Origin: a virus
Taxonomy: Duplodnaviria; Heunggongvirae; Uroviricota; Caudoviricetes
Reading direction: 5' to 3' (one strand)
Virus record (IMG/VR): IMGVR_UViG_3300029305_007758
Length of the DNA stretch: 19,361 nucleotides
Part shown: in pieces, positions 1,143 through 18,772 of the stretch
Layout of the letters: each line of letters starts with the position of its first letter
Numbering within the stretch: position 1 is the stretch's first letter
Translations under genes and position numbers: made by a program
Notes under the pieces: model-generated
Databases searched by the model: none
What the model was told of the DNA's origin: nothing
Seen by the model: only the letters and a program-made list of their open reading frames with translations

Positions 1143-1178
1143 CTTCGTTTCAATTTCAGTTGATCCTTATTATATGTA
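1143..1178 (+). promoter_or_regulatory. Class A bipartite motif CTTCGTT-N12-GATCCTTAT
   Basis: One of 5 copies with identical 12-nt spacing, upstream of gene at 1217. Confidence 0.75.
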
Positions 1179-3302: not shown

Positions 3303-3755
3303 ATGTGGAAACAAATAATCATATGTAGAAAAGATTTATCCATGTCACCGGGGAAACTTGCGGCACAAGTATCACATGCAAGTATGGCATTTTTAACAAC
3401 AATGATTCGCAACAGTATATCGCAAGATACACCAGAATATTCACTTGCATATGAGCCAACATTTTATGAAGTTAAGTTAATATTAAATAAAGATTTATAC
3501 GAACAATGGATAAATGGTGCGTATACAAAATGTGTATTAGAAGCTCGTAACAAAAATCATCTTCTTAAAGCAAAACATATAGCAGAAGAACTTGGTATGA
3601 AAGAAGGCGAAGATTTCTTTTTGATATATGATAATTGTTACACCGAACTTGCACCGGAAGAAGAAAATGGAACAACATTAACTGCAATCGGATTTAGACC
3701 AATGCCAGCAGAAATAATTGATAAAATTGGTAAAAAACATCATTTGTATATGTAA
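3303..3755 (+). CDS. pth2: Peptidyl-tRNA hydrolase, Pth2 (archaeal/eukaryotic-type) family
   Basis: KQIIICRKDLSMSPGKLAAQVSHAS, YTKCVL, 'IYDNCYTEL...GTTLTAIGFRP' are Pth2 hallmarks. Confidence 0.9.
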   Translation: MWKQIIICRKDLSMSPGKLAAQVSHASMAFLTTMIRNSISQDTPEYSLAYEPTFYEVKLILNKDLYEQWINGAYTKCVLEARNKNHLLKAKHIAEELGMKEGEDFFLIYDNCYTELAPEEENGTTLTAIGFRPMPAEIIDKIGKKHHLYM

Positions 3756-4601: not shown

Positions 4602-4638
4602 AAAAAAGGTGTTACAAAGAATTTTGTGACATCTTTTT
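4602..4638 (+). terminator. Intrinsic terminator
   Basis: AAAAAAGGTGTTACAAA / TTTGTGACATCTTTTT stem with U-tract after gene end. Confidence 0.8.
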
Positions 4639-4670
4639 CTACGTTTTAATAAAAATTGAACCTAATATAT
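4639..4670 (+). promoter_or_regulatory. Class A motif CTACGTT-N12-GAACCTAATATAT
   Basis: Same spacing as the other copies; directly abuts terminator U-tract. Confidence 0.75.
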
Positions 4671-4748: not shown

Positions 4749-5039
4749 ATGAAAAAGTTAGCTGATGCAAAAAATAATCCAGACGTTTTTAAAATAGAGC
4801 ACACTTGTACCGGTAAAGGTTGGAAACAAGGCGGTCGTAAACCATGTTATGCATTATGGGAAGTTGCCGCATATGATATTTTGAAACGAAAATCTATGGA
4901 CTATGGTGGTGGCACAGAAATTTCATATGGATTTATTTGTCCGGAATGTGGTTGTTTCACAGAAATTGATGCGGCAAAGTTGCCTTATGAAGTAAAAAGT
5001 AATGCAATTGAGTATACAGTAGAAATGCAGCAGGTATAG
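4749..5039 (+). CDS. Hypothetical protein, probable Zn-binding (HTC...C, CPECGC)
   Basis: GAAAGGA RBS before ATG 4749. Confidence 0.7.
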   Translation: MKKLADAKNNPDVFKIEHTCTGKGWKQGGRKPCYALWEVAAYDILKRKSMDYGGGTEISYGFICPECGCFTEIDAAKLPYEVKSNAIEYTVEMQQV

Positions 5040-5049
5040 GAGACTGGTT

Positions 5050-5460
5050 ATGATTAAGAACCCAAAACATGGTTGGTGCACATTTTCACTTGGAACATTT
5101 GTTGGAACTCCAAGTTATTTAACAGATGTACCAATGGATTTATTAGATGTATTTATTAATTATTTTGAAAATGGATACAGCGCCGTTGTATTCGATGAAG
5201 AAGGTACAGACTTTACATTGGTTATGACTGCATACAATGATAGTATTTTTATCATTGCAGAACGATACGAAAAACCTACGTTACATAATTTTAGTAACTT
5301 TAATGTTCGTGACTTAGCGAATGAGTTAATTAACGATTTAGAATCAGATTTACATGGATGGTCATTGTTTTTAGCAAATGATGATCCGGAAGAAATTAAA
5401 CTGCATCGAGATGAAATCAGACAGAAGATTGCGAAGTTAAAGAAAATGATGGAGAAATAA
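5050..5460 (+). CDS. Hypothetical protein
   Basis: AGGAG RBS, 136 aa. Confidence 0.75.
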   Translation: MIKNPKHGWCTFSLGTFVGTPSYLTDVPMDLLDVFINYFENGYSAVVFDEEGTDFTLVMTAYNDSIFIIAERYEKPTLHNFSNFNVRDLANELINDLESDLHGWSLFLANDDPEEIKLHRDEIRQKIAKLKKMMEK

Positions 5461-5461
5461 T

Positions 5462-6031
5462 ATGCAAAACTACTTAACCTGTTGGGAAGAAAATGGAACA
5501 AAAAGATGGGAAGTTACAAATAATAAAGATAATAGGGAACTCTGTCTCGAATTGTTACAGAATGAAAATGTCGACAATCACAGTATCTTTATCACCCCCG
5601 TAACAGGTGGATTTGTTCAAGGGATTTGGTTGATTCCTGATGGACATAAAAGTGATCGGGTTGATTTTTGGAACTTTCATGAAGATTACGGTAAAGCATA
5701 TGTGAAACCAAAATTGAGTGAAATGACAAAACAAATCGTATCTGATATCGAGGAACAGCGTGGTGATGATACAAAATACGGCTGGCTTTCACCGGATGGA
5801 CGTTATTTCCATTGTAATTATCAGGGTCATACTACATTGGCATATGATATCTGTTTCGGTTTGGTTGAGACCAGTAATCCGGAACGCTATCTGGAAGAAC
5901 GCGGTTGGTGTAAAATCTTCAAACCACTTGGTAATAAGAAATATTGTGTATATGTTGGTGGGAAACATGTAATTACTGATGCTCAGATGAAGAAGCTGAT
6001 TGAATTGGGACTAGAATTTCTGCCGCATTAG
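5462..6031 (+). CDS. Hypothetical protein with C-terminal WLSPDG...H...LExxGW domain
   Basis: GGAG RBS; domain shared with 18794-19276. Confidence 0.75.
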   Translation: MQNYLTCWEENGTKRWEVTNNKDNRELCLELLQNENVDNHSIFITPVTGGFVQGIWLIPDGHKSDRVDFWNFHEDYGKAYVKPKLSEMTKQIVSDIEEQRGDDTKYGWLSPDGRYFHCNYQGHTTLAYDICFGLVETSNPERYLEERGWCKIFKPLGNKKYCVYVGGKHVITDAQMKKLIELGLEFLPH

Positions 6032-6061
6032 TGAAAAAGTAAACAACAAGGAGATAGATCA

Positions 6062-6700
6062 ATGAAAGTTACAATTGAAGGTGGATATGAAGCTGCTAAG
6101 GAACAAATTTATAATGAAGCATTAATAAATAAGCAGAATGAACTAAAAAATATTTATTTCAAAATCTTTGATAAAGAATTTGTAATGGGATTAATTGTAA
6201 TTGCATTTTTGTTTGCAGTTTCTTTTGATCCATCATTTAATCCAAAAATAGCAACGATTATATTAAGATATGGAATGTTAGTAGTTATTGTTTTTGAGTT
6301 AATTTTGCGGATCCGAGAATGCAAATCAAGCAAAAAACTTTATGCAGATTTAATTGAGAAACAAAAAAGCATGACATTTGATGAATATGTTAAATACGTT
6401 GAATGTATTGAAAAAGATGACATTTATATAGACAGTGACATAATTTACGAACTTGATAGATTGAAGAGATTAGAATTGTTATCAAATCCAGACATAATAT
6501 CTATGGAATATACAGTTAATGATCTTTTTTGGGATATTTGTTTGTCTTTTTTGATAGAAACAAAGAACAATCAAAAAGAAACTATTGATATCGTGTGTGG
6601 ATGTATCGAATATACAGATTCAGAAGAAGAATTGGTATGGGAAGTGGGACTTCCTATACTTTTCCGAACAAATAATAAAGAACTTGTTAATAAATGTTAG
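6062..6700 (+). CDS. Membrane protein (2 TM), paralogue 1 of tandem pair
   Basis: AAGGAG RBS; MKVTIEGGYEAAK N-terminus shared with next gene. Confidence 0.8.
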   Translation: MKVTIEGGYEAAKEQIYNEALINKQNELKNIYFKIFDKEFVMGLIVIAFLFAVSFDPSFNPKIATIILRYGMLVVIVFELILRIRECKSSKKLYADLIEKQKSMTFDEYVKYVECIEKDDIYIDSDIIYELDRLKRLELLSNPDIISMEYTVNDLFWDICLSFLIETKNNQKETIDIVCGCIEYTDSEEELVWEVGLPILFRTNNKELVNKC

Positions 6701-6718
6701 GAAAGGATGTATAAATCA

Positions 6719-7381
6719 ATGAAAGTTACAATTAAAGGCGGTTATGAAGCTGCCAAGGGACGAATTTATAACGAATCGTTAGAAGGTAAACAGAAAGAAT
6801 TGGATAAAATTAAGCTTTTTCGTTTTGATACGTTAAATGAAAAAGCGGCAGTCATGATACAAATTATAACAGTATTTTGTTTTGCACTTTCTTTTTTGCC
6901 ATTATTTGATGAAAATAGTGCACTTTTGGTTAGATGTTCAATGTTATTTACTTTCTTTTTTACAATTGCTGCGGATATTTCATCATGTAAATCAGAAAGA
7001 AAGCGCTACATGAATCTAATTGAAAAACACAAAAGCATGTCCATGATTGAATACATAAAATATGTAAATAACGATTCACATTTTCTTATATTTGATGATG
7101 AATACATGATTGATTCGTACAATGATTTACAAAAGTTTGCATCATTATTGGATCCAGATATTGTTTCTATTGAATATACACGTGTTAACGGTGAATTATC
7201 ATCAAATGTGTTGTTCTTTGTGAAAAAGAAAAATAACCAAAAAGATGCAGTTGATTTTGGACTTATCAATATTCTGTACAGAGATTCCGAAGAAGACGAA
7301 CTTGTTTGGGACGAAGATAGCGTAATCACTCTTTATACAAACGATAAAGGATTTGTTAAGAAAAAGGATGGAGAAAATTAA
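6719..7381 (+). CDS. Membrane protein (2 TM), paralogue 2 of tandem pair
   Basis: MKVTIKGGYEAAK; start chosen by homology to paralogue 1. Confidence 0.8.
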   Translation: MKVTIKGGYEAAKGRIYNESLEGKQKELDKIKLFRFDTLNEKAAVMIQIITVFCFALSFLPLFDENSALLVRCSMLFTFFFTIAADISSCKSERKRYMNLIEKHKSMSMIEYIKYVNNDSHFLIFDDEYMIDSYNDLQKFASLLDPDIVSIEYTRVNGELSSNVLFFVKKKNNQKDAVDFGLINILYRDSEEDELVWDEDSVITLYTNDKGFVKKKDGEN

Positions 7382-7382
7382 A

Positions 7383-7628
7383 ATGAGTTTAAAGGAACGT
7401 GTAGATAATATTATTGCATACTACAATAATTATGGAGCAAACGATATCAATGATTGCATAAATCGTTTGGATACATTGTTAAAGAATGAACCAAGTGTTA
7501 CCGGATACAGAATTGGCAAAGATACAGATGTTTTTGAATCGTCTGGTGTTGATATTTATTATGTTAGTGTTGCGTGGGTAGATGGGAATGGATTGAATCT
7601 GTGCGGTGGTCCGGTATACAGCTGTTAG
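7383..7628 (+). CDS. Hypothetical protein
   Basis: GGAG RBS before ATG 7383. Confidence 0.7.
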   Translation: MSLKERVDNIIAYYNNYGANDINDCINRLDTLLKNEPSVTGYRIGKDTDVFESSGVDIYYVSVAWVDGNGLNLCGGPVYSC

Positions 7629-7643
7629 GAAAGGATAAAAGAA

Positions 7644-8087
7644 ATGAAAGTAATTTTGAAACGTGATATTAAAAATAAAGGCAAACGCGGTGACATCATC
7701 ACTGTCGCAGATAGCTATGCCAAAAATGTTTTAATTAAAAATGGTGATGCAGTAGAAGCAACATCTGGTGCGATGAATGATTTGAAGTTGGCAAATAATA
7801 ATCGCGATAAAGTAGAAGCCATGGCAGTAGCAGAAGCGAATGAGGCAAAAAGACTTATTGAATCAAATGAAGTTGTGATGTCTATTAAAACCGGAGACAC
7901 CGGTAAATCACATGGCCATATTACGTCGCAAAAAATTGCTGATGCAATTAATATGCAGCTTGGAGTTGAAGTGGATAAACGTGACATTAAAACAGATACC
8001 ATTGACTTGCCAGGCAAATATGAGCTGCAGGTAAAATTGCATAAAAATGTAATTGCGACGGTGAATTTGCATGTAAAACAGGTGTAG
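7644..8087 (+). CDS. rplI: Ribosomal protein bL9 homologue, full length, diverged
   Basis: MKVILKRDIKNKGKRGDIITVADSYAKNVL (NTD), AVEAT, linker helix, G-x-IT-S-x-x-IADAI, 'GVEVDKRDI', 'GKYELQVKLH' (CTD); 147 aa as in canonical bL9. Confidence 0.92.
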   Translation: MKVILKRDIKNKGKRGDIITVADSYAKNVLIKNGDAVEATSGAMNDLKLANNNRDKVEAMAVAEANEAKRLIESNEVVMSIKTGDTGKSHGHITSQKIADAINMQLGVEVDKRDIKTDTIDLPGKYELQVKLHKNVIATVNLHVKQV

Positions 8088-8104
8088 AAAGTGAGAAATA
8101 AATA

Positions 8105-8548
8105 ATGTCTATATTTAATTTTGAATATGAAGATGATTGGAAACATTTATTTATTGTTGGTGGTTTTTGTTTGTTGGCTATCATGTTTTTTAGCTGCAAT
8201 ACACCTGCGCAAAAACCGGATCCAAAACCTGGTTCATATGATATTGTGGCAGATACAGAAATTGGTACATATGTGGATGGATACAAAGTTTATACAGTAG
8301 TTGATGTTAGAGAATCAACAGGTCGATATGGAACAAGACATGTATCTGTTGTGCTAGAAGATGCTTCAGAAAATAGATACAATTCAGAATATATTTGGCA
8401 GTGGGATACTGAGTTTGAAGCAACTTCTTATAATAATTTAGCAGCATTAATTGTTGGTGACAAAGTTGCAGTTATTAACATCAATAAAGAATGGGACATT
8501 AATAATTTGAGACGAATACGTGAGGATAGTGAAGCGAAAGGAGAATAA
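8105..8548 (+). CDS. Membrane-anchored/secreted hypothetical protein
   Basis: Hydrophobic segment LFIVGGFCLLAIMFFSC near N-terminus. Confidence 0.7.
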   Translation: MSIFNFEYEDDWKHLFIVGGFCLLAIMFFSCNTPAQKPDPKPGSYDIVADTEIGTYVDGYKVYTVVDVRESTGRYGTRHVSVVLEDASENRYNSEYIWQWDTEFEATSYNNLAALIVGDKVAVININKEWDINNLRRIREDSEAKGE

Positions 8549-8550
8549 TT

Positions 8551-8859
8551 ATGGGGTGTCCAGAAATATATTATAAACAAGCTATACGAAACTTTGCACA
8601 TGCATTAGCTTATAACATGAATGGTAAAGACTTTGCAACAAAATTGTATGAAGAAAAATCTGATGAAATTATTGAAAATTTTATCAAAGAAAAAAAAGAG
8701 ACGTGTGATGAAAAACAATTTTACTATGATGCCGGCAGAGCTTCTCAGTTAGTGCAGGATATGGCTGAAAATGAAGGGATTGATGCATTCAATGCCTGTA
8801 TCGGTGGATTAATTTCGTTTGATCAATTGATTGGACTTGAGGAAGAAGACGATGATTAA
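8551..8859 (+). CDS. Hypothetical protein
   Basis: AAGGAG RBS. Confidence 0.7.
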   Translation: MGCPEIYYKQAIRNFAHALAYNMNGKDFATKLYEEKSDEIIENFIKEKKETCDEKQFYYDAGRASQLVQDMAENEGIDAFNACIGGLISFDQLIGLEEEDDD

Positions 8860-9295
8860 TTTTGAAATCATACATAATGGAAAAAATAGCATAAGATCGT
8901 ACGAAAAAGATCGGAATGTGTATGAATGTTTTGCAAAAACAGATCATGAAGAAACTCCCATTTGCGTCTGTAAAATCAGTGCCACAGAAAATAAATGGAC
9001 CATTTCATCATGGTATACAAAATCTGAATACAAAAATCGTGGCATTGGTAAACAGACGCTGGGGTATTTGCTTCATTGTTTATATGAAACATATGGAATG
9101 CCGGAAACAATTGAATACATATGGGACGGCACAGCTGAATATGTTTATGATTGGATGACAAAACATTTTGATGCAAAATGTATGTGCCCATTAGCAGTTC
9201 TGAAAATGAATGAAGCGGCAGATGATTGGTTGGCACATGTGTATGAGTTAGATGTGGCAAAAGTTTTTGATTATTTTGAGATAAAAAAACAATAA
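8852..9295 (+). CDS. GNAT-like acetyltransferase
   Basis: 'ISSWYTKSEYKNRGIGKQTL' resembles the acetyl-CoA binding motif A (R/QxxGxG); overlaps upstream stop. Confidence 0.6.
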   Translation: MINFEIIHNGKNSIRSYEKDRNVYECFAKTDHEETPICVCKISATENKWTISSWYTKSEYKNRGIGKQTLGYLLHCLYETYGMPETIEYIWDGTAEYVYDWMTKHFDAKCMCPLAVLKMNEAADDWLAHVYELDVAKVFDYFEIKKQ

Positions 9296-9350: not shown

Positions 9351-9408
9351 CTTCGTTTCAAATATACGTGATCCTTATATTTATATGTAATTTTCCAAAC
9401 CATATTTA
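9351..9408 (+). promoter_or_regulatory. Tandem class A (9351-9389) and class B (9399-9408) motifs
   Basis: CTTCGTT-N12-GATCCTTAT followed by ACCATATTTA upstream of gene at 9444. Confidence 0.75.
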
Positions 9409-13294: not shown

Positions 13295-13807
13295 ATGACA
13301 TTAGATCAGATCAAAGAAACGTTGCATACACCTGCATACGATTTTCTTCGTAACAATGAACATCTTGGACCAAATGTATGCTTGTTAACACTTGGTGGTT
13401 CACATGCATATGGAACCAGTAAAGAAACCAGTGATGTCGACGTAAGAGGAATTGCATTAAATCCAAAACGTGACATTTTACTTGGAACAGATTTTGGACA
13501 GGTAACAGATGAGCCAACTGATACAACAATTTATTCATTCAATAAGATGATGAAGTTACTTTCTGACTTAAATCCAAACACAATCGAAATGCTTGGATGC
13601 TTGCCGGAGCATTATTTACATGTATCGCCAATTGGTCAGGAAATTCTTGATAACAAAAAGATCTTTTTATCAAAGAAAGCAATTCATACATTTGGCGGTT
13701 ATGCAAATCAGATGTTGTATCGTGCCACTCAGCGTTTTACATTGGCTTTTCACGATACGGATTTACAATGTTGCATTCGTTTTATGCAAAGAATGAAATG
13801 GACGTAA
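13295..13807 (+). pseudogene. Pol-beta-superfamily nucleotidyltransferase (Nuc-transf/RlaP-like), apparently C-terminally truncated
   Basis: GGSHAYG...SDVDVRG, NPNTIEML, FGGYANQ motifs; resemblance stops near 13730 and the ORF ends at 170 aa, shorter than expected for the family. Confidence 0.6.
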
Positions 13808-13974
13808 GACATCGCGCGTTATCTATTTGGGGTAGATACGATAATATTTATACAAAAGCTGATATAGCAAAGATTCAGCTTCTCAATGGTGATGAATATT
13901 TTAGTCGTAATTATACAATCAAAGAACCTGTATATGTATTGCTAGACGAAGAAATCAAAGGAGAAATATTATGA
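13768..13974 (+). CDS. Hypothetical protein, probably 5'-truncated remnant
   Basis: Frame is open upstream of the ATG, no RBS, stop overlaps next start (ATGA). Confidence 0.4.
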   Translation: MLHSFYAKNEMDVRHRALSIWGRYDNIYTKADIAKIQLLNGDEYFSRNYTIKEPVYVLLDEEIKGEIL

Positions 13975-14927
13975 AAGAAATCAGTGCAAAGTTAAAACAG
14001 CGTTTCTGTAAGGATTACAAAATTCCGATTGATATTTTTGAAGCACCATACTTCAGTGACAGATTATATCTGTTAGATGAATTTTATGGAACAATCGGTA
14101 AATGGCGACAGTTTGTAAGAGAACTGGAATCTTACGAATCAGAACAGGATTATTTTGAAGAATATAATCGCATCAAAGATGAAGCGATTAACTTTATTAA
14201 GGGAACTGATGCATATAAGCGCTTCAACGAAATGGACATGAATCAGTATCCGGTGGAACATAAGAATTTGCCTCATACGGATATTTTCAAACCAACAAAC
14301 GATGGCCGGAGTTTGAGTAGCATCGATATGAAGAAAGCAAACTTTTCTTCGCTTCATCATTATGATGCCTCTATGTTTGGCGGCGCAGAAACTTGGGAAG
14401 AATTTATTGGCAAATTTACTGATAAGAAACATATCATTGAAAGCAAATATATTCGCCAGGTTATTTTAGGCAATTGTAATCCGAAGCGGCATATTGCTTA
14501 CGAAAAATATTTGATGGATATGGTGCTGTATGATATCTTATCAACTGTATCAATTAACCATATTGTATTCTTTTCAAATGATGAAATTGTGATTGATGTG
14601 ACATCATTAGGTTTTGAATCACAGATTAAGTTACGTAAGATGCTTGTAACAATCTTAAATGGTGAAAATATTCCATTACGCTGCGAATTATTTACGTTAC
14701 ATAAAATCCATGGTACAGATGGGTATGTAAAAAAGATTATTGCAGCAGAAGATTTAGAAGAACATGATATTCGTTTCGAATTTAAATGTTTAAACAGTAT
14801 TATGATCCCATTCGTAATGCGTTACATGAGAAATGAATCAGTTAGAGATAATGACAAAGTCTTCTATCATGAAGGAATGTTGGCACAATTTATTGAAACA
14901 CCGGATATCCGGATTGAAAATTGGTAA
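13971..14927 (+). CDS. Hypothetical protein with DNA polymerase A-like palm motifs
   Basis: AAAGGAG RBS; SIDMKKANF (D119) and SNDEIVIDV (D204/E205) resemble PolA motifs A and C. Confidence 0.7.
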   Translation: MKEISAKLKQRFCKDYKIPIDIFEAPYFSDRLYLLDEFYGTIGKWRQFVRELESYESEQDYFEEYNRIKDEAINFIKGTDAYKRFNEMDMNQYPVEHKNLPHTDIFKPTNDGRSLSSIDMKKANFSSLHHYDASMFGGAETWEEFIGKFTDKKHIIESKYIRQVILGNCNPKRHIAYEKYLMDMVLYDILSTVSINHIVFFSNDEIVIDVTSLGFESQIKLRKMLVTILNGENIPLRCELFTLHKIHGTDGYVKKIIAAEDLEEHDIRFEFKCLNSIMIPFVMRYMRNESVRDNDKVFYHEGMLAQFIETPDIRIENW

Positions 14928-17650: not shown

Positions 17651-18523
17651 TTATGCAATTTTTGCGGTATTGCGAACTTCCGCAATTATTTGGTTACAAA
17701 TATATCTTGCACCACCTTCAGTCATGGCTAACTCATTTCCGATTTCAGACCATTGTTTGTTGCCAAAGAAACGCTGCTGCAAAATCTTTCTTGATTTCTC
17801 ATCCAATGCATTTACTGCATCAATAACATCGTCAATTTCAGCTCTGGTACAAAACATATCTAATACATCAGAAGTTATCAATTTGTTTTCATCTAACGTT
17901 TCAGAAGTATAACCAAATCCATGACGAATCTTTGGTAACATAGTTTTTACTGTTGCACCAAATTGTTTTTTAAAAACTTCATGTTGTTCTTCTGACAACA
18001 TATTGATAATTTCTTCATCTGTATGATCCGCAATTTCGATACTAAAATCTGATGACAGATTTTTCCTGAGCCAAGAATATGCTTTGATAATTCTTTTTCC
18101 ACCAAGTTCTAAGTTCGGATAGTAGCAAAGTGCATGGCTTAAGAAAATATCTATGTACCAACTTTTTAATGCAGAATACAAATAGTTTCGTATCATTTTA
18201 CGGAACACTGCATCTTTACATTTGATATCTTCAAAGATGTTACAAACAAATGCGTCTATCAACCATTTACGAATTTCCATATACAATTCTGCAAAAGCAA
18301 CTTCACGTGTCAATGATTCGTAAACACGCTCAAAGGCACCCATTCCATAAGCATAATGAAATGAATCTAAGAAACGATCCAGTGTTTCAGTCATAAATGC
18401 TGAATCCATGATTTTGTTTAATGCTTCATTAAATTCACGTCCTTTATTTTCGTTATCACGTTCGCTTTCTACAACCATCCATGCTTCGTACAACGAAGGT
18501 TTTTTGTTAAATCTTTGTTTCAT
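17651..18523 (-). CDS. Sigma-factor-like protein (sigma70 region 4 HTH at C-terminus)
   Basis: 'AVNALDEKSRKILQQRFFGNKQWSEIGNELAMTEGGARYICNQII' is a region-4 pattern; AAAGGAG RBS supports start at 18523 (MKQRF); regions 2-3 not recognisable. Confidence 0.7.
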   Translation of the reverse strand: MKQRFNKKPSLYEAWMVVESERDNENKGREFNEALNKIMDSAFMTETLDRFLDSFHYAYGMGAFERVYESLTREVAFAELYMEIRKWLIDAFVCNIFEDIKCKDAVFRKMIRNYLYSALKSWYIDIFLSHALCYYPNLELGGKRIIKAYSWLRKNLSSDFSIEIADHTDEEIINMLSEEQHEVFKKQFGATVKTMLPKIRHGFGYTSETLDENKLITSDVLDMFCTRAEIDDVIDAVNALDEKSRKILQQRFFGNKQWSEIGNELAMTEGGARYICNQIIAEVRNTAKIA

Positions 18524-18570
18524 AAATAATCTCCTTTTCATATTCAATTGTTTTTTTATTTGATACGAAT

Positions 18571-18580
18571 TAAATATGGT
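18571..18580 (-). promoter_or_regulatory. Class B motif ACCATATTTA on minus strand
   Basis: TAAATATGGT on plus strand; oriented towards the sigma-like gene. Confidence 0.7.
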
Positions 18581-18737: not shown

Positions 18738-18772
18738 CTTCGTTTAAGATGTTTTTGAACCTAATATATGTA
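18738..18772 (+). promoter_or_regulatory. Class A motif CTTCGTT-N12-GAACCTAATATAT
   Basis: Same spacing; upstream of gene at 18794. Confidence 0.75.

What the first reader, a model, noticed from the sequence alone, without database searches (positions are those of the whole stretch)
7644..8087. Phage-borne full-length ribosomal protein bL9 with altered conserved motifs
Seen: complete two-domain bL9 (147 aa) among phage-type ORFs, not in the usual Firmicutes gdpP-rplI-helicase context. It deviates at normally conserved sites: DGYARNF/YL becomes DSYAKNVL, the FP/IP proline is lost, G(R/K)LFGS becomes GKSHGH, and the linker helix is charge-poor. Established: phages are known to carry bS21, bL12 and HPF and rarely bL9-like domains; bL9 suppresses frameshifting/bypassing and its CTD contacts the neighbouring 30S in collided ribosomes. 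Inference: a viral bL9 could displace the host copy and reprogramme frameshifting, bypassing or collision sensing in favour of phage mRNAs. This is the strongest candidate for new biology here.
Basis: partly seen in the sequence, partly recalled or inferred. Interest (0 to 1): 0.78.

Follow-up and report, generated by a model that had tools for sequence, protein, structure and literature searches.

The report
Mobile-element copy of ribosomal protein L9
A roughly 106-kb mobile DNA element (phage or plasmid-like, not settled) from an animal-gut Firmicute carries its own complete, selectively maintained copy of ribosomal protein bL9, which keeps ribosomes in frame and spaced apart, and this copy has a histidine where bL9 normally uses an aromatic residue to touch the next ribosome.

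Summary
The ORF at 7644-8087 is a real, full-length bL9. It has both Pfam domains, scores 115.7 bits on TIGR00158 (cut-off 58.6), and its AlphaFold model matches 1DIV at TM 0.89. It is not the chromosomal rplI: no gdpP, dnaB, rpsR or ssb lies nearby, and most neighbouring ORFs are orphans. It belongs to a small clade of five 90%-identity protein clusters (63-88% identical to the window's protein). The nearest cellular bL9 is 46-48% identical (gut/rumen Clostridia, Lachnospiraceae). The clade sits on a long stem and has dN/dS of about 0.29, with a nearly invariant 23S-binding N-domain. A lineage-specific 81-aa gene always precedes it.

Only one of the four claimed motif deviations is truly unusual: GKSHGH. 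H90 and H92 occur in 0 of 193 cellular sequences. H90 aligns with E. coli Phe91, the key contact with the trailing ribosome's 16S rRNA. Sister copies keep Tyr there.

"Phage-borne" is not shown. I saw no virion genes and found no relatives of this element's own genes in IMG/VR. Earlier notes on the rest of this contig call it plasmid-like.

This scan had already found a full-length L9 on another genome's jumbo phage. I found only an N-terminal phage fragment in print.

The function is inferred and untested.

The parts
7644..8087 (+). Full-length bL9 gene (147 aa, P0001)
   Evidence: both Pfam domains, TIGR00158 above cut-off, AF2 model at TM 0.89 to 1DIV.
7629..7635 (+). Shine-Dalgarno-like GAAAGGA, 8 nt before the ATG
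   Evidence: read directly from the sequence.
7644..7763 (+). N-terminal (23S rRNA-binding) domain, residues 1-40
   Evidence: 85-100% identical within the element clade and 55-72% identical to cellular bL9. dN/dS over residues 1-50 is 0.08-0.23. Residues 10-32 are invariant in all five clade members.
7764..7865 (+). Linker helix, residues 41-74
   Evidence: AF2 helix at 41-74. Charged fraction 0.31 against 0.41+-0.06 in cellular bL9. E60, found in 160/193 cellular sequences, is replaced by M or C in the clade.
7866..8084 (+). C-terminal domain, residues 75-147
   Evidence: Pfam L9_C. dN/dS 0.29-0.40. The invariant residues K82, G84, G87, G91, K112 and G124 are retained.
7887..7919 (+). C-domain tip K82...K88-S-H90-G-H92, equivalent to E. 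coli K83, K89 and F91
   Evidence: Alignment with enterobacterial bL9 and PMC10897467. H90 and H92 each occur in 0/193 cellular sequences. Sister copies have Y90.
7383..7628 (+). 81-aa gene of unknown function with invariant C-terminal LCGGPVYSC, always directly upstream of the bL9 gene
   Evidence: It lies 12-15 nt before the bL9 start in the window, L087, L084 and L234. The family has only 4 clusters among 5.8 billion proteins.
4642..4663 (+). Bipartite promoter-like motif CGTTT-N11-GAACCT after a terminator hairpin (4603-4638); likely head of the 4749-9295 unit that holds the bL9 gene
   Evidence: 4 copies in the window against 0.01 expected, all intergenic and on the + strand. Terminator scan. 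The next copy is at 9354.
3303..3755 (+). PTH2-type peptidyl-tRNA hydrolase, a second translation-related gene on the element (upstream unit)
   Evidence: Pfam PF01981 at 3.6e-21. Its NCBIfam Pth2 scores are below the cut-offs.

Best explanation
This gene encodes a working paralogue of ribosomal protein bL9. It is carried by a roughly 106-kb extrachromosomal element of a low-GC animal-gut or rumen Firmicute, probably Lachnospiraceae-like. Whether that element is a phage, a phage-plasmid or a plasmid-like element is unresolved.

The gene was captured long ago from a Clostridia-type host. It has drifted to the element's base composition and is kept by purifying selection as a two-gene cassette with a lineage-specific 81-aa gene.

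Inferred mechanism: the almost invariant N-domain anchors the protein on 23S rRNA at the normal bL9 site of host 50S subunits, since bL9 is one of the loosely bound, exchangeable ribosomal proteins. The linker and C-domain then reach the trailing ribosome in polysomes. The tip keeps both lysines and an aromatic or imidazole residue (Y90 in most copies, H90 here), so it probably still docks in the 16S h5/h15 groove, but with altered affinity in this sublineage.

Shown: family membership, fold, non-chromosomal context, clade structure and selection. Inferred: ribosome binding and any effect on ribosome spacing, frameshifting or collision handling.
For: - Family and fold.
- Not the chromosomal locus: the window has no GdpP, DnaB, S18 or SSB, whereas the closest cellular copies P0006, P0009 and P0122 sit in rpsF-ssb-rpsR-gdpP-rplI-dnaB.
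- Mobile-element context: a dense same-strand array of mostly orphan ORFs; PHROG hits for a Holliday-junction resolvase, a NinI-like phosphatase, a nucleotidyltransferase, phrog_17260 and phrog_24834; a sigma-like ORF; and two private promoter-like motifs. The next 10 kb look the same.
- Clade: P0001-P0005 are 63-88% identical, and identity then drops to 46%. A profile search of 1.84 billion representatives gives 272 bits for the clade and 143 bits for the next hit. In the tree the clade has 100/99 support, a stem of 0.75, and is sister to cellular P0006 (97/86) beside Lachnospiraceae.
- Synteny of relatives.
- Strain variants at about 96% identity keep the bL9 gene while losing flanking ORFs.
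- Selection: dN/dS 0.29 overall, 0.08-0.23 in the N-domain, 0.29-0.40 in the C-domain.
- Composition: GC3 is 0.32 against 0.25+-0.04 for the window's genes and 0.38-0.73 for cellular relatives.
- Tip residues.
- bL9 biology: PMC6815119, PMC10897467. Exchangeable ribosomal proteins are the ones enriched on viruses: PMC6375957.
Against: There is no expression or protein data. Ribosome binding has not been tested. H90 and H92 have no counterpart in the 193 cellular sequences and could weaken or abolish the inter-ribosome contact. Clade-specific changes such as L35 to D/E and E60 to M/C could alter folding or function. The carrier type is unknown, so 'takeover' logic borrowed from lytic phages may not apply. 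The comparison set of 193 sequences is mostly Clostridia, so a count of 0/193 is not a universal frequency.
Confidence: 0.6

Rival explanations
1. Specialised reprogramming. The element's bL9 displaces host bL9 and, through its altered C-domain tip and linker, changes ribosome spacing, frameshifting or bypassing, or collision sensing, to the element's advantage.
For: H90 sits at the position of E. coli Phe91, the key residue that stacks in the h5/h15 groove of the queueing ribosome, and is unique among 193 cellular sequences. Loss of bL9 changes ribosome compaction and frameshifting. A PTH2 hydrolase on the same element points to other translation-related cargo. The stem branch is long.
Against: Three of the five clade members keep Tyr at position 90, which 57/193 cellular bL9s also have, so the lineage as a whole does not need an altered tip. 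No frameshift or bypass site was seen, because only the accessory region is available. No functional data exist.
Confidence: 0.2
2. Decoy or neofunctionalised protein. It keeps the bL9 fold but no longer acts as bL9. Either it occupies the 50S site with a non-docking C-domain (a dominant negative), or it binds another RNA.
For: H90, H92 and S89 replace the conserved hydrophobic/aromatic and Ser positions. The C-domain is only 33-38% identical to cellular copies. The gene is always paired with an unknown small gene.
Against: All invariant fold and tip residues (K82, G84, G87, K88, G91, K112, G124) are kept. The C-domain is still under purifying selection, with dN/dS 0.29-0.40. The TIGR00158 equivalog score is twice the cut-off.
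Confidence: 0.12
3. Functionless passenger gene recently picked up from a host.
For: Mobile elements sample host DNA at random (PMC6375957).
Against: Identity to any cellular bL9 is at most 48%. The stem branch is long. The gene is intact in five diverged clade members, dN/dS is about 0.29 among the three whose DNA was available, and gene order is conserved in the four contexts seen. The base composition has drifted to that of the element. The gene is kept where flanking ORFs are lost.
Confidence: 0.05
4. The contig is host chromosome and this is the organism's ordinary rplI.
For: No virion or conjugation gene was seen by me in the window.
Against: The conserved rplI neighbours are absent. About three quarters of the ORFs have no Pfam family. 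The region carries private promoter-like motifs. ORF content varies at strain level. Two assemblies give contigs of 106,228 and 106,235 bp.
Confidence: 0.03

Closest known systems
Chromosomal bL9 (rplI) of Clostridia/Lachnospiraceae and Bacilli (e.g. G. stearothermophilus L9, PDB 1DIV; B. subtilis bL9 in the collided disome, 7QV1)
   Same: Same length and the same two domains joined by a long helix. The model matches 1DIV at TM 0.89 (7QV1: TM 0.76). The invariant N-domain and C-domain residues are kept, and the protein passes the TIGR00158 equivalog cut-off.
   Different: It is not in the rpsF-ssb-rpsR-gdpP-rplI-dnaB locus. Identity is at most 48%. It has clade-specific substitutions: K/Q6, R15, D/E35, M/C60 and L122-P123. 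In this copy S89, H90 and H92 replace the [LVTA]-[FY]-G-S pattern.
Virus-encoded ribosomal proteins (Mizuno et al. 2019, PMC6375957), including the bL9 N-domain fragment of Mycobacterium phage 32HC
   Same: A 'dynamic', exchangeable ribosomal protein carried on a mobile genome, present as a single copy and under purifying selection.
   Different: The published phage bL9 is an 86-aa protein with only the N-domain and part of the helix. Here both domains are intact. By that paper's text, bL9 was not among the ribosomal proteins found in uncultivated viral contigs. The carrier here is not shown to be a virus.
Full-length L9 on a ~220-kb gut Clostridia jumbo phage, noted earlier in this scan (e1-1872868; unpublished AI note)
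   Same: A complete, selectively maintained bL9 on a large element of gut Clostridia.
   Different: It is on different DNA and shares no short words with this protein, so it is probably an independent capture. I did not check it here.
Large plasmid-like elements with their own sigma factor and private promoters (B. subtilis pBS32 SigN/ZpdN, as named in earlier notes)
   Same: A sigma-like ORF (17651-18547) and two strictly oriented intergenic motifs occur in the window.
   Different: I know of no ribosomal protein reported on pBS32 (from my own knowledge, not checked here). Membership was not tested.

Membership tests
bL9 (TIGR00158; PF01281 + PF03948) | N-terminal L9 domain | tested here: met
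   PF01281 at 63.8 bits against 20.7, covering residues 1-47.
bL9 (TIGR00158; PF01281 + PF03948) | C-terminal L9 domain | tested here: met
   PF03948 at 72 bits against 23.2, covering residues 63-145.
bL9 (TIGR00158; PF01281 + PF03948) | Full-length equivalog score above the curated cut-off | tested here: met
   TIGR00158 at 115.7 bits against 58.6.
bL9 (TIGR00158; PF01281 + PF03948) | Dumbbell fold with a long connecting helix | tested here: met
   AF2 pLDDT 83 with a helix at 41-74. Foldseek match to 1DIV at TM 0.89 and E 2e-14.
bL9 (TIGR00158; PF01281 + PF03948) | C-domain tip residues that dock on 16S h5/h15 of the neighbouring ribosome (E. coli K83, K89, F91) | tested here: inconclusive
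   K82 and K88 are kept. F91 is replaced by H90 here and by Y90 in sister copies.
bL9 (TIGR00158; PF01281 + PF03948) | Binds 23S rRNA and is a stoichiometric 50S component | not testable with these tools
   Only inferred from the near-invariant N-domain.
Chromosomal rplI locus of Firmicutes | Flanked by gdpP upstream and dnaB downstream | tested here: not met
   tblastn with GdpP, DnaB, S18 and SSB gives no hit in the window, but hits in cellular controls.
Virus-encoded ribosomal proteins | Encoded on a genome with virion or packaging genes | tested here: inconclusive
   None appear in the window or in the Pfam table for the next 10 kb. The remaining ~77 kb could not be fetched. Earlier notes report none (unverified).
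Virus-encoded ribosomal proteins | Purifying selection after transfer | tested here: met
   dN/dS 0.29 among three diverged copies.
Virus-encoded ribosomal proteins | Incorporation into host ribosomes | not testable with these tools
   Needs sucrose gradients and mass spectrometry.

The most novel reading that the evidence does not exclude
The 81-aa LCGGPVYSC protein and the bL9 paralogue form a dedicated ribosome-modifying cassette. The element's bL9 replaces host bL9, and through its changed tip (F/Y90 to H) and linker it alters how closely ribosomes queue and how collisions are sensed. This would favour the element's mRNAs or blunt collision-triggered rescue or defence.
Probability: 0.12. 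Interest if true: 0.8.

Novelty: new member of a known kind. Interest (0 to 1): 0.5.

Why it matters
bL9 is the ribosome's spacer and frame-keeper in polysomes. Mobile elements were known to carry bS21, bL12, HPF and a few other ribosomal proteins, but I found only a bL9 N-terminal fragment in print. A complete, long-maintained bL9 on a mobile element adds the inter-ribosome contact to the translation steps such elements may tune. The natural F/Y-to-H change at the key docking residue, next to sister copies that keep Tyr, offers a ready-made allelic series for testing what that contact does. The finding also warns that 'phage' bL9 hits in public phage and plasmid collections are host contigs.

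Tried and rejected
- Fetching the rest of the 106-kb contig failed. The sample's file is too large, and the one metagenome scan returned only cellular L9s. Virion or conjugation genes therefore could not be checked.
- IMG/VR scans found no relatives with P0001, with an L9 alignment, or with the 189-aa, sigma-like and 284-aa proteins.
- The 49 IMG/VR contigs that share the nucleotidyltransferase/318-aa pair carry no L9 within 10 kb and lack the ACCATATTTA motif, so they say nothing about this element.
- Megablast of the window against phages found no match.
- The INPHARED L9 hits I checked (six, plus the annotated Salmonella record) are host contigs with cellular neighbours: GdpP-L9-DnaB in the six, rpsF-priB-rpsR-rplI in Salmonella. 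The PLSDB L9 hits are chromosome pieces.
- BFVD gave no structural match.
- No RNA holder was listed in public runs, so expression is unknown.
- Complex prediction of bL9 with the 81-aa protein gave no answer.
- Atlas look-ups of the two flanking ORFs gave only weak leads.
- No tRNA genes are in the window.
- P0123 (45% identical, on a 721-bp contig with no DnaB downstream) might be another element-borne L9, but its context is too short to tell.

Full report
**What is there**

The ORF at 7644-8087 (+) gives a 147-aa protein, P0001. A GAAAGGA ribosome-binding site lies 8 nt before the ATG. The protein matches both Pfam bL9 domains well above their cut-offs. It scores 115.7 bits on the NCBIfam equivalog TIGR00158, whose cut-off is 58.6. 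By sequence, its best solved relatives are G. stearothermophilus and B. subtilis L9. An AlphaFold2 model (pLDDT 83) shows a beta N-domain, one long helix at 41-74 and an alpha/beta C-domain. That model superposes on 1DIV at TM 0.89. The gene is a real, complete bL9.

**Context**

The window is the first 19.4 kb of a 106,228-bp JGI metagenome contig. A second assembly gives 106,235 bp. No whole genome is held for it.

Nearly all ORFs are on one strand, closely packed, and mostly without a Pfam family. Those with hits are:
- a RecU/Holliday-junction resolvase;
- a DUF488 protein;
- phosphatases;
- a PTH2 peptidyl-tRNA hydrolase;
- an RlaP-type nucleotidyltransferase;
- a radical-SAM protein;
- a sigma-like protein.

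Several also hit PHROG families strongly. The gene table for the next 10 kb looks the same.

tblastn with GdpP, DnaB, S18 and SSB finds nothing in the window. The same queries hit cellular controls beside every bL9. So this is not the chromosomal rplI locus.

Public runs that hold the sequence are animal faeces and gut metagenomes. Related strains at about 96% identity keep the bL9 gene while lacking 6015-6711 and 8528-8852.

**Phage or not**

I saw no terminase, portal, capsid or tail gene. The remaining ~77 kb could not be fetched. Neither the bL9 nor three other proteins of this element have relatives in IMG/VR.

Earlier notes of this scan on the other windows of the same contig report DnaE, primase, RecD2, a ParM-like operon, a VirD4-like ATPase, NAD-salvage genes and c-di-GMP genes. 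Their follow-up agents call the element plasmid-like or conjugative, with no detectable virion genes. I could not verify those notes, but they moved me from 'phage' to 'large mobile element, type unresolved'.

I could confirm two private promoter-like motifs:
- ACCATATTTA occurs 7 times against 0.13 expected.
- CGTTT-N11-GA(A/T)CCT occurs 4 times against 0.01 expected.

The bL9 gene lies in the 4749-9295 unit. That unit follows a terminator hairpin (4603-4638) and the second motif at 4642-4663.

**Relatives and history**

Among 5.8 billion proteins, P0001 has four close relatives, P0002-P0005, at 63-88% identity. Identity then drops to 46%. A profile of the clade searched against 1.84 billion representatives scores 272 bits for the clade and 143 bits for the next protein.

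The next-best proteins P0006, P0009 and P0122 are chromosomal, sitting in rpsF-ssb-rpsR-gdpP-rplI-dnaB. The best genome matches are Lachnospiraceae from rumen and gut, at up to 48% identity.

In a maximum-likelihood tree the five copies form a clade with 100/99 support on a stem of 0.75 substitutions per site. The clade is sister to P0006 (97/86) and lies next to the Lachnospiraceae set.

Relatives share gene order:
- L087 has the window's 189-aa gene (85% identical) and the small upstream gene.
- L084 and L234 have the small gene directly before bL9.
- L084 has an HNH/RRXRR-type endonuclease after bL9.

Pairwise dN/dS among three copies is 0.29: 0.08-0.23 in the N-domain and 0.29-0.40 in the C-domain. 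The N-domain is 85-100% identical within the clade, against 50-84% for the C-domain. GC3 of the gene is 0.32. That is close to the window's genes (0.25+-0.04) and far from its closest cellular relatives by protein identity, which lie at about 0.7. All of this points to an old capture followed by selective maintenance.

**The claimed motif changes**

I compared the protein with 193 cellular bL9s, mostly Clostridia.
- DSYAKNVL is not unusual. The same or a nearly identical string is found in the chromosomal copies P0006, P0009 and P0012.
- The 'lost' proline is Lys in 66/193.
- The linker is slightly less charged (0.31 against 0.41+-0.06), and sister copies are normal.
- GKSHGH is different: His at 90 and His at 92 each occur in 0/193.

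Aligning with enterobacterial bL9 places K82, K88 and H90 at E. coli K83, K89 and F91. Flügel et al. 2024 (PMC10897467) show that exactly these three residues dock the stretched bL9 of a leading ribosome into the 16S h5/h15 groove of the queueing ribosome. Phe91 is the key stacking residue, and this contact blocks the factor-binding site and stabilises disomes.

P0003-P0005 have Tyr at position 90, as do 57/193 cellular proteins. The His is therefore a derived state of the P0001/P0002 branch.

**Likely mechanism**

Smith et al. 2019 (PMC6815119) show that ribosomes lacking bL9 pack one codon closer on collision, and that bL9 suppresses frameshifting in cis. Mizuno et al. 2019 (PMC6375957) argue that viruses preferentially carry loosely bound, exchangeable ribosomal proteins, bL9 among them.

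The most economical reading has three parts:
- The element's protein loads onto host 50S subunits through its conserved N-domain.
- It then serves as bL9.
- In this sublineage it has a modified tip.

Whether that modification changes spacing, frameshifting or collision sensing is open. No step of this mechanism has been tested.

**Conserved partner**

The 81-aa gene at 7383-7628 ends in an invariant LCGGPVYSC. It sits 12-15 nt before bL9 in all four contexts seen, and its family has only four clusters in the whole protein collection. A structure-based test of binding gave no answer (listed under tried and rejected).

**Novelty**

In the paper library I found only the 86-aa N-domain fragment of Mycobacterium phage 32HC as a virus-borne bL9. 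The 'phage' and 'plasmid' bL9 hits I checked in INPHARED and PLSDB are host DNA. BFVD has no structural match.

This scan had already noted a full-length L9 on a ~220-kb gut jumbo phage in another genome (e1-1872868). That case shares no sequence words with this one, so it is probably an independent capture.

I therefore rate this as a new member of a known kind: ribosomal proteins carried on mobile elements. Interest is moderate. It is raised by the natural change at the Phe91 position and by the conserved cassette, and lowered by the unresolved carrier and the lack of any functional data.

Noticed in passing
window 285, 9399, 13241, 15119, 15442, 16593 (+), 18571-18580 (-): There are seven exact ACCATATTTA copies against 0.13 expected, all intergenic and oriented with the genes. 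This is a private promoter-like motif, already noted by others on this contig.
   Followed up: partly
window 1146-1167, 4642-4663, 9354-9375, 18741-18762: The bipartite motif CGTTT-N11-GA(A/T)CCT occurs four times against 0.01 expected, all intergenic and on the + strand. Some copies sit just after terminator hairpins. It looks like a second promoter class, and one copy heads the unit that holds bL9.
   Followed up: partly
window 6062-6700 and 6707-7381: These are tandem paralogues (43% identical, E 2e-45), probably membrane proteins. Related strains and L087 lack one or both copies.
   Followed up: partly
window 13295-14927: The RlaP-type nucleotidyltransferase and the 318-aa gene form a pair that is shared, at 36-60% identity for the 318-aa protein, with 49 IMG/VR contigs of 6-290 kb (most 87-206 kb). 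Those contigs share almost nothing else with the window, so the pair looks like a mobile two-gene module.
   Followed up: partly
L225 (JGI 3300024270 contig, 2318 bp): The contig is 100% identical to window 6639-7796. It then switches, inside the bL9 gene, to a sequence encoding an FtsI/PBP2-like cell-division protein at 37% GC. It is either a chimeric assembly or a real junction. It yields a 105-aa 'L9_N only' protein (P0032).
   Followed up: partly
L084:881-2365: In the P0004 relative, a 495-aa protein with an RRXRR motif and an HNH motif (read by eye from the translation) lies directly after the bL9 gene. It looks like a homing-endonuclease-type gene.
   Followed up: no
window 3303-3755: A PTH2-type peptidyl-tRNA hydrolase (Pfam 3.6e-21, below the NCBIfam equivalog cut-offs) is a second translation-related gene on the element.
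   Followed up: no
P0125 (225 aa): This is a bL9 with an internal tandem duplication of the linker and part of the C-domain. It could be real or an assembly artefact.
   Followed up: no
INPHARED records MT837110, MT837010, MT835600, MT835802, MT838176, OR846603: These 'Bacteriophage sp.' and 'Enterococcus phage' records that hit bL9 carry GdpP-L9-DnaB, and some also carry SSB and S18. They are host chromosome fragments filed as phage.
   Followed up: yes
L233 (721-bp contig, 28% GC), protein P0123: This bL9 is 45% identical to P0001 and is followed by a non-DnaB ORF. It may be another element-borne copy, but the contig is too short to tell.
   Followed up: partly
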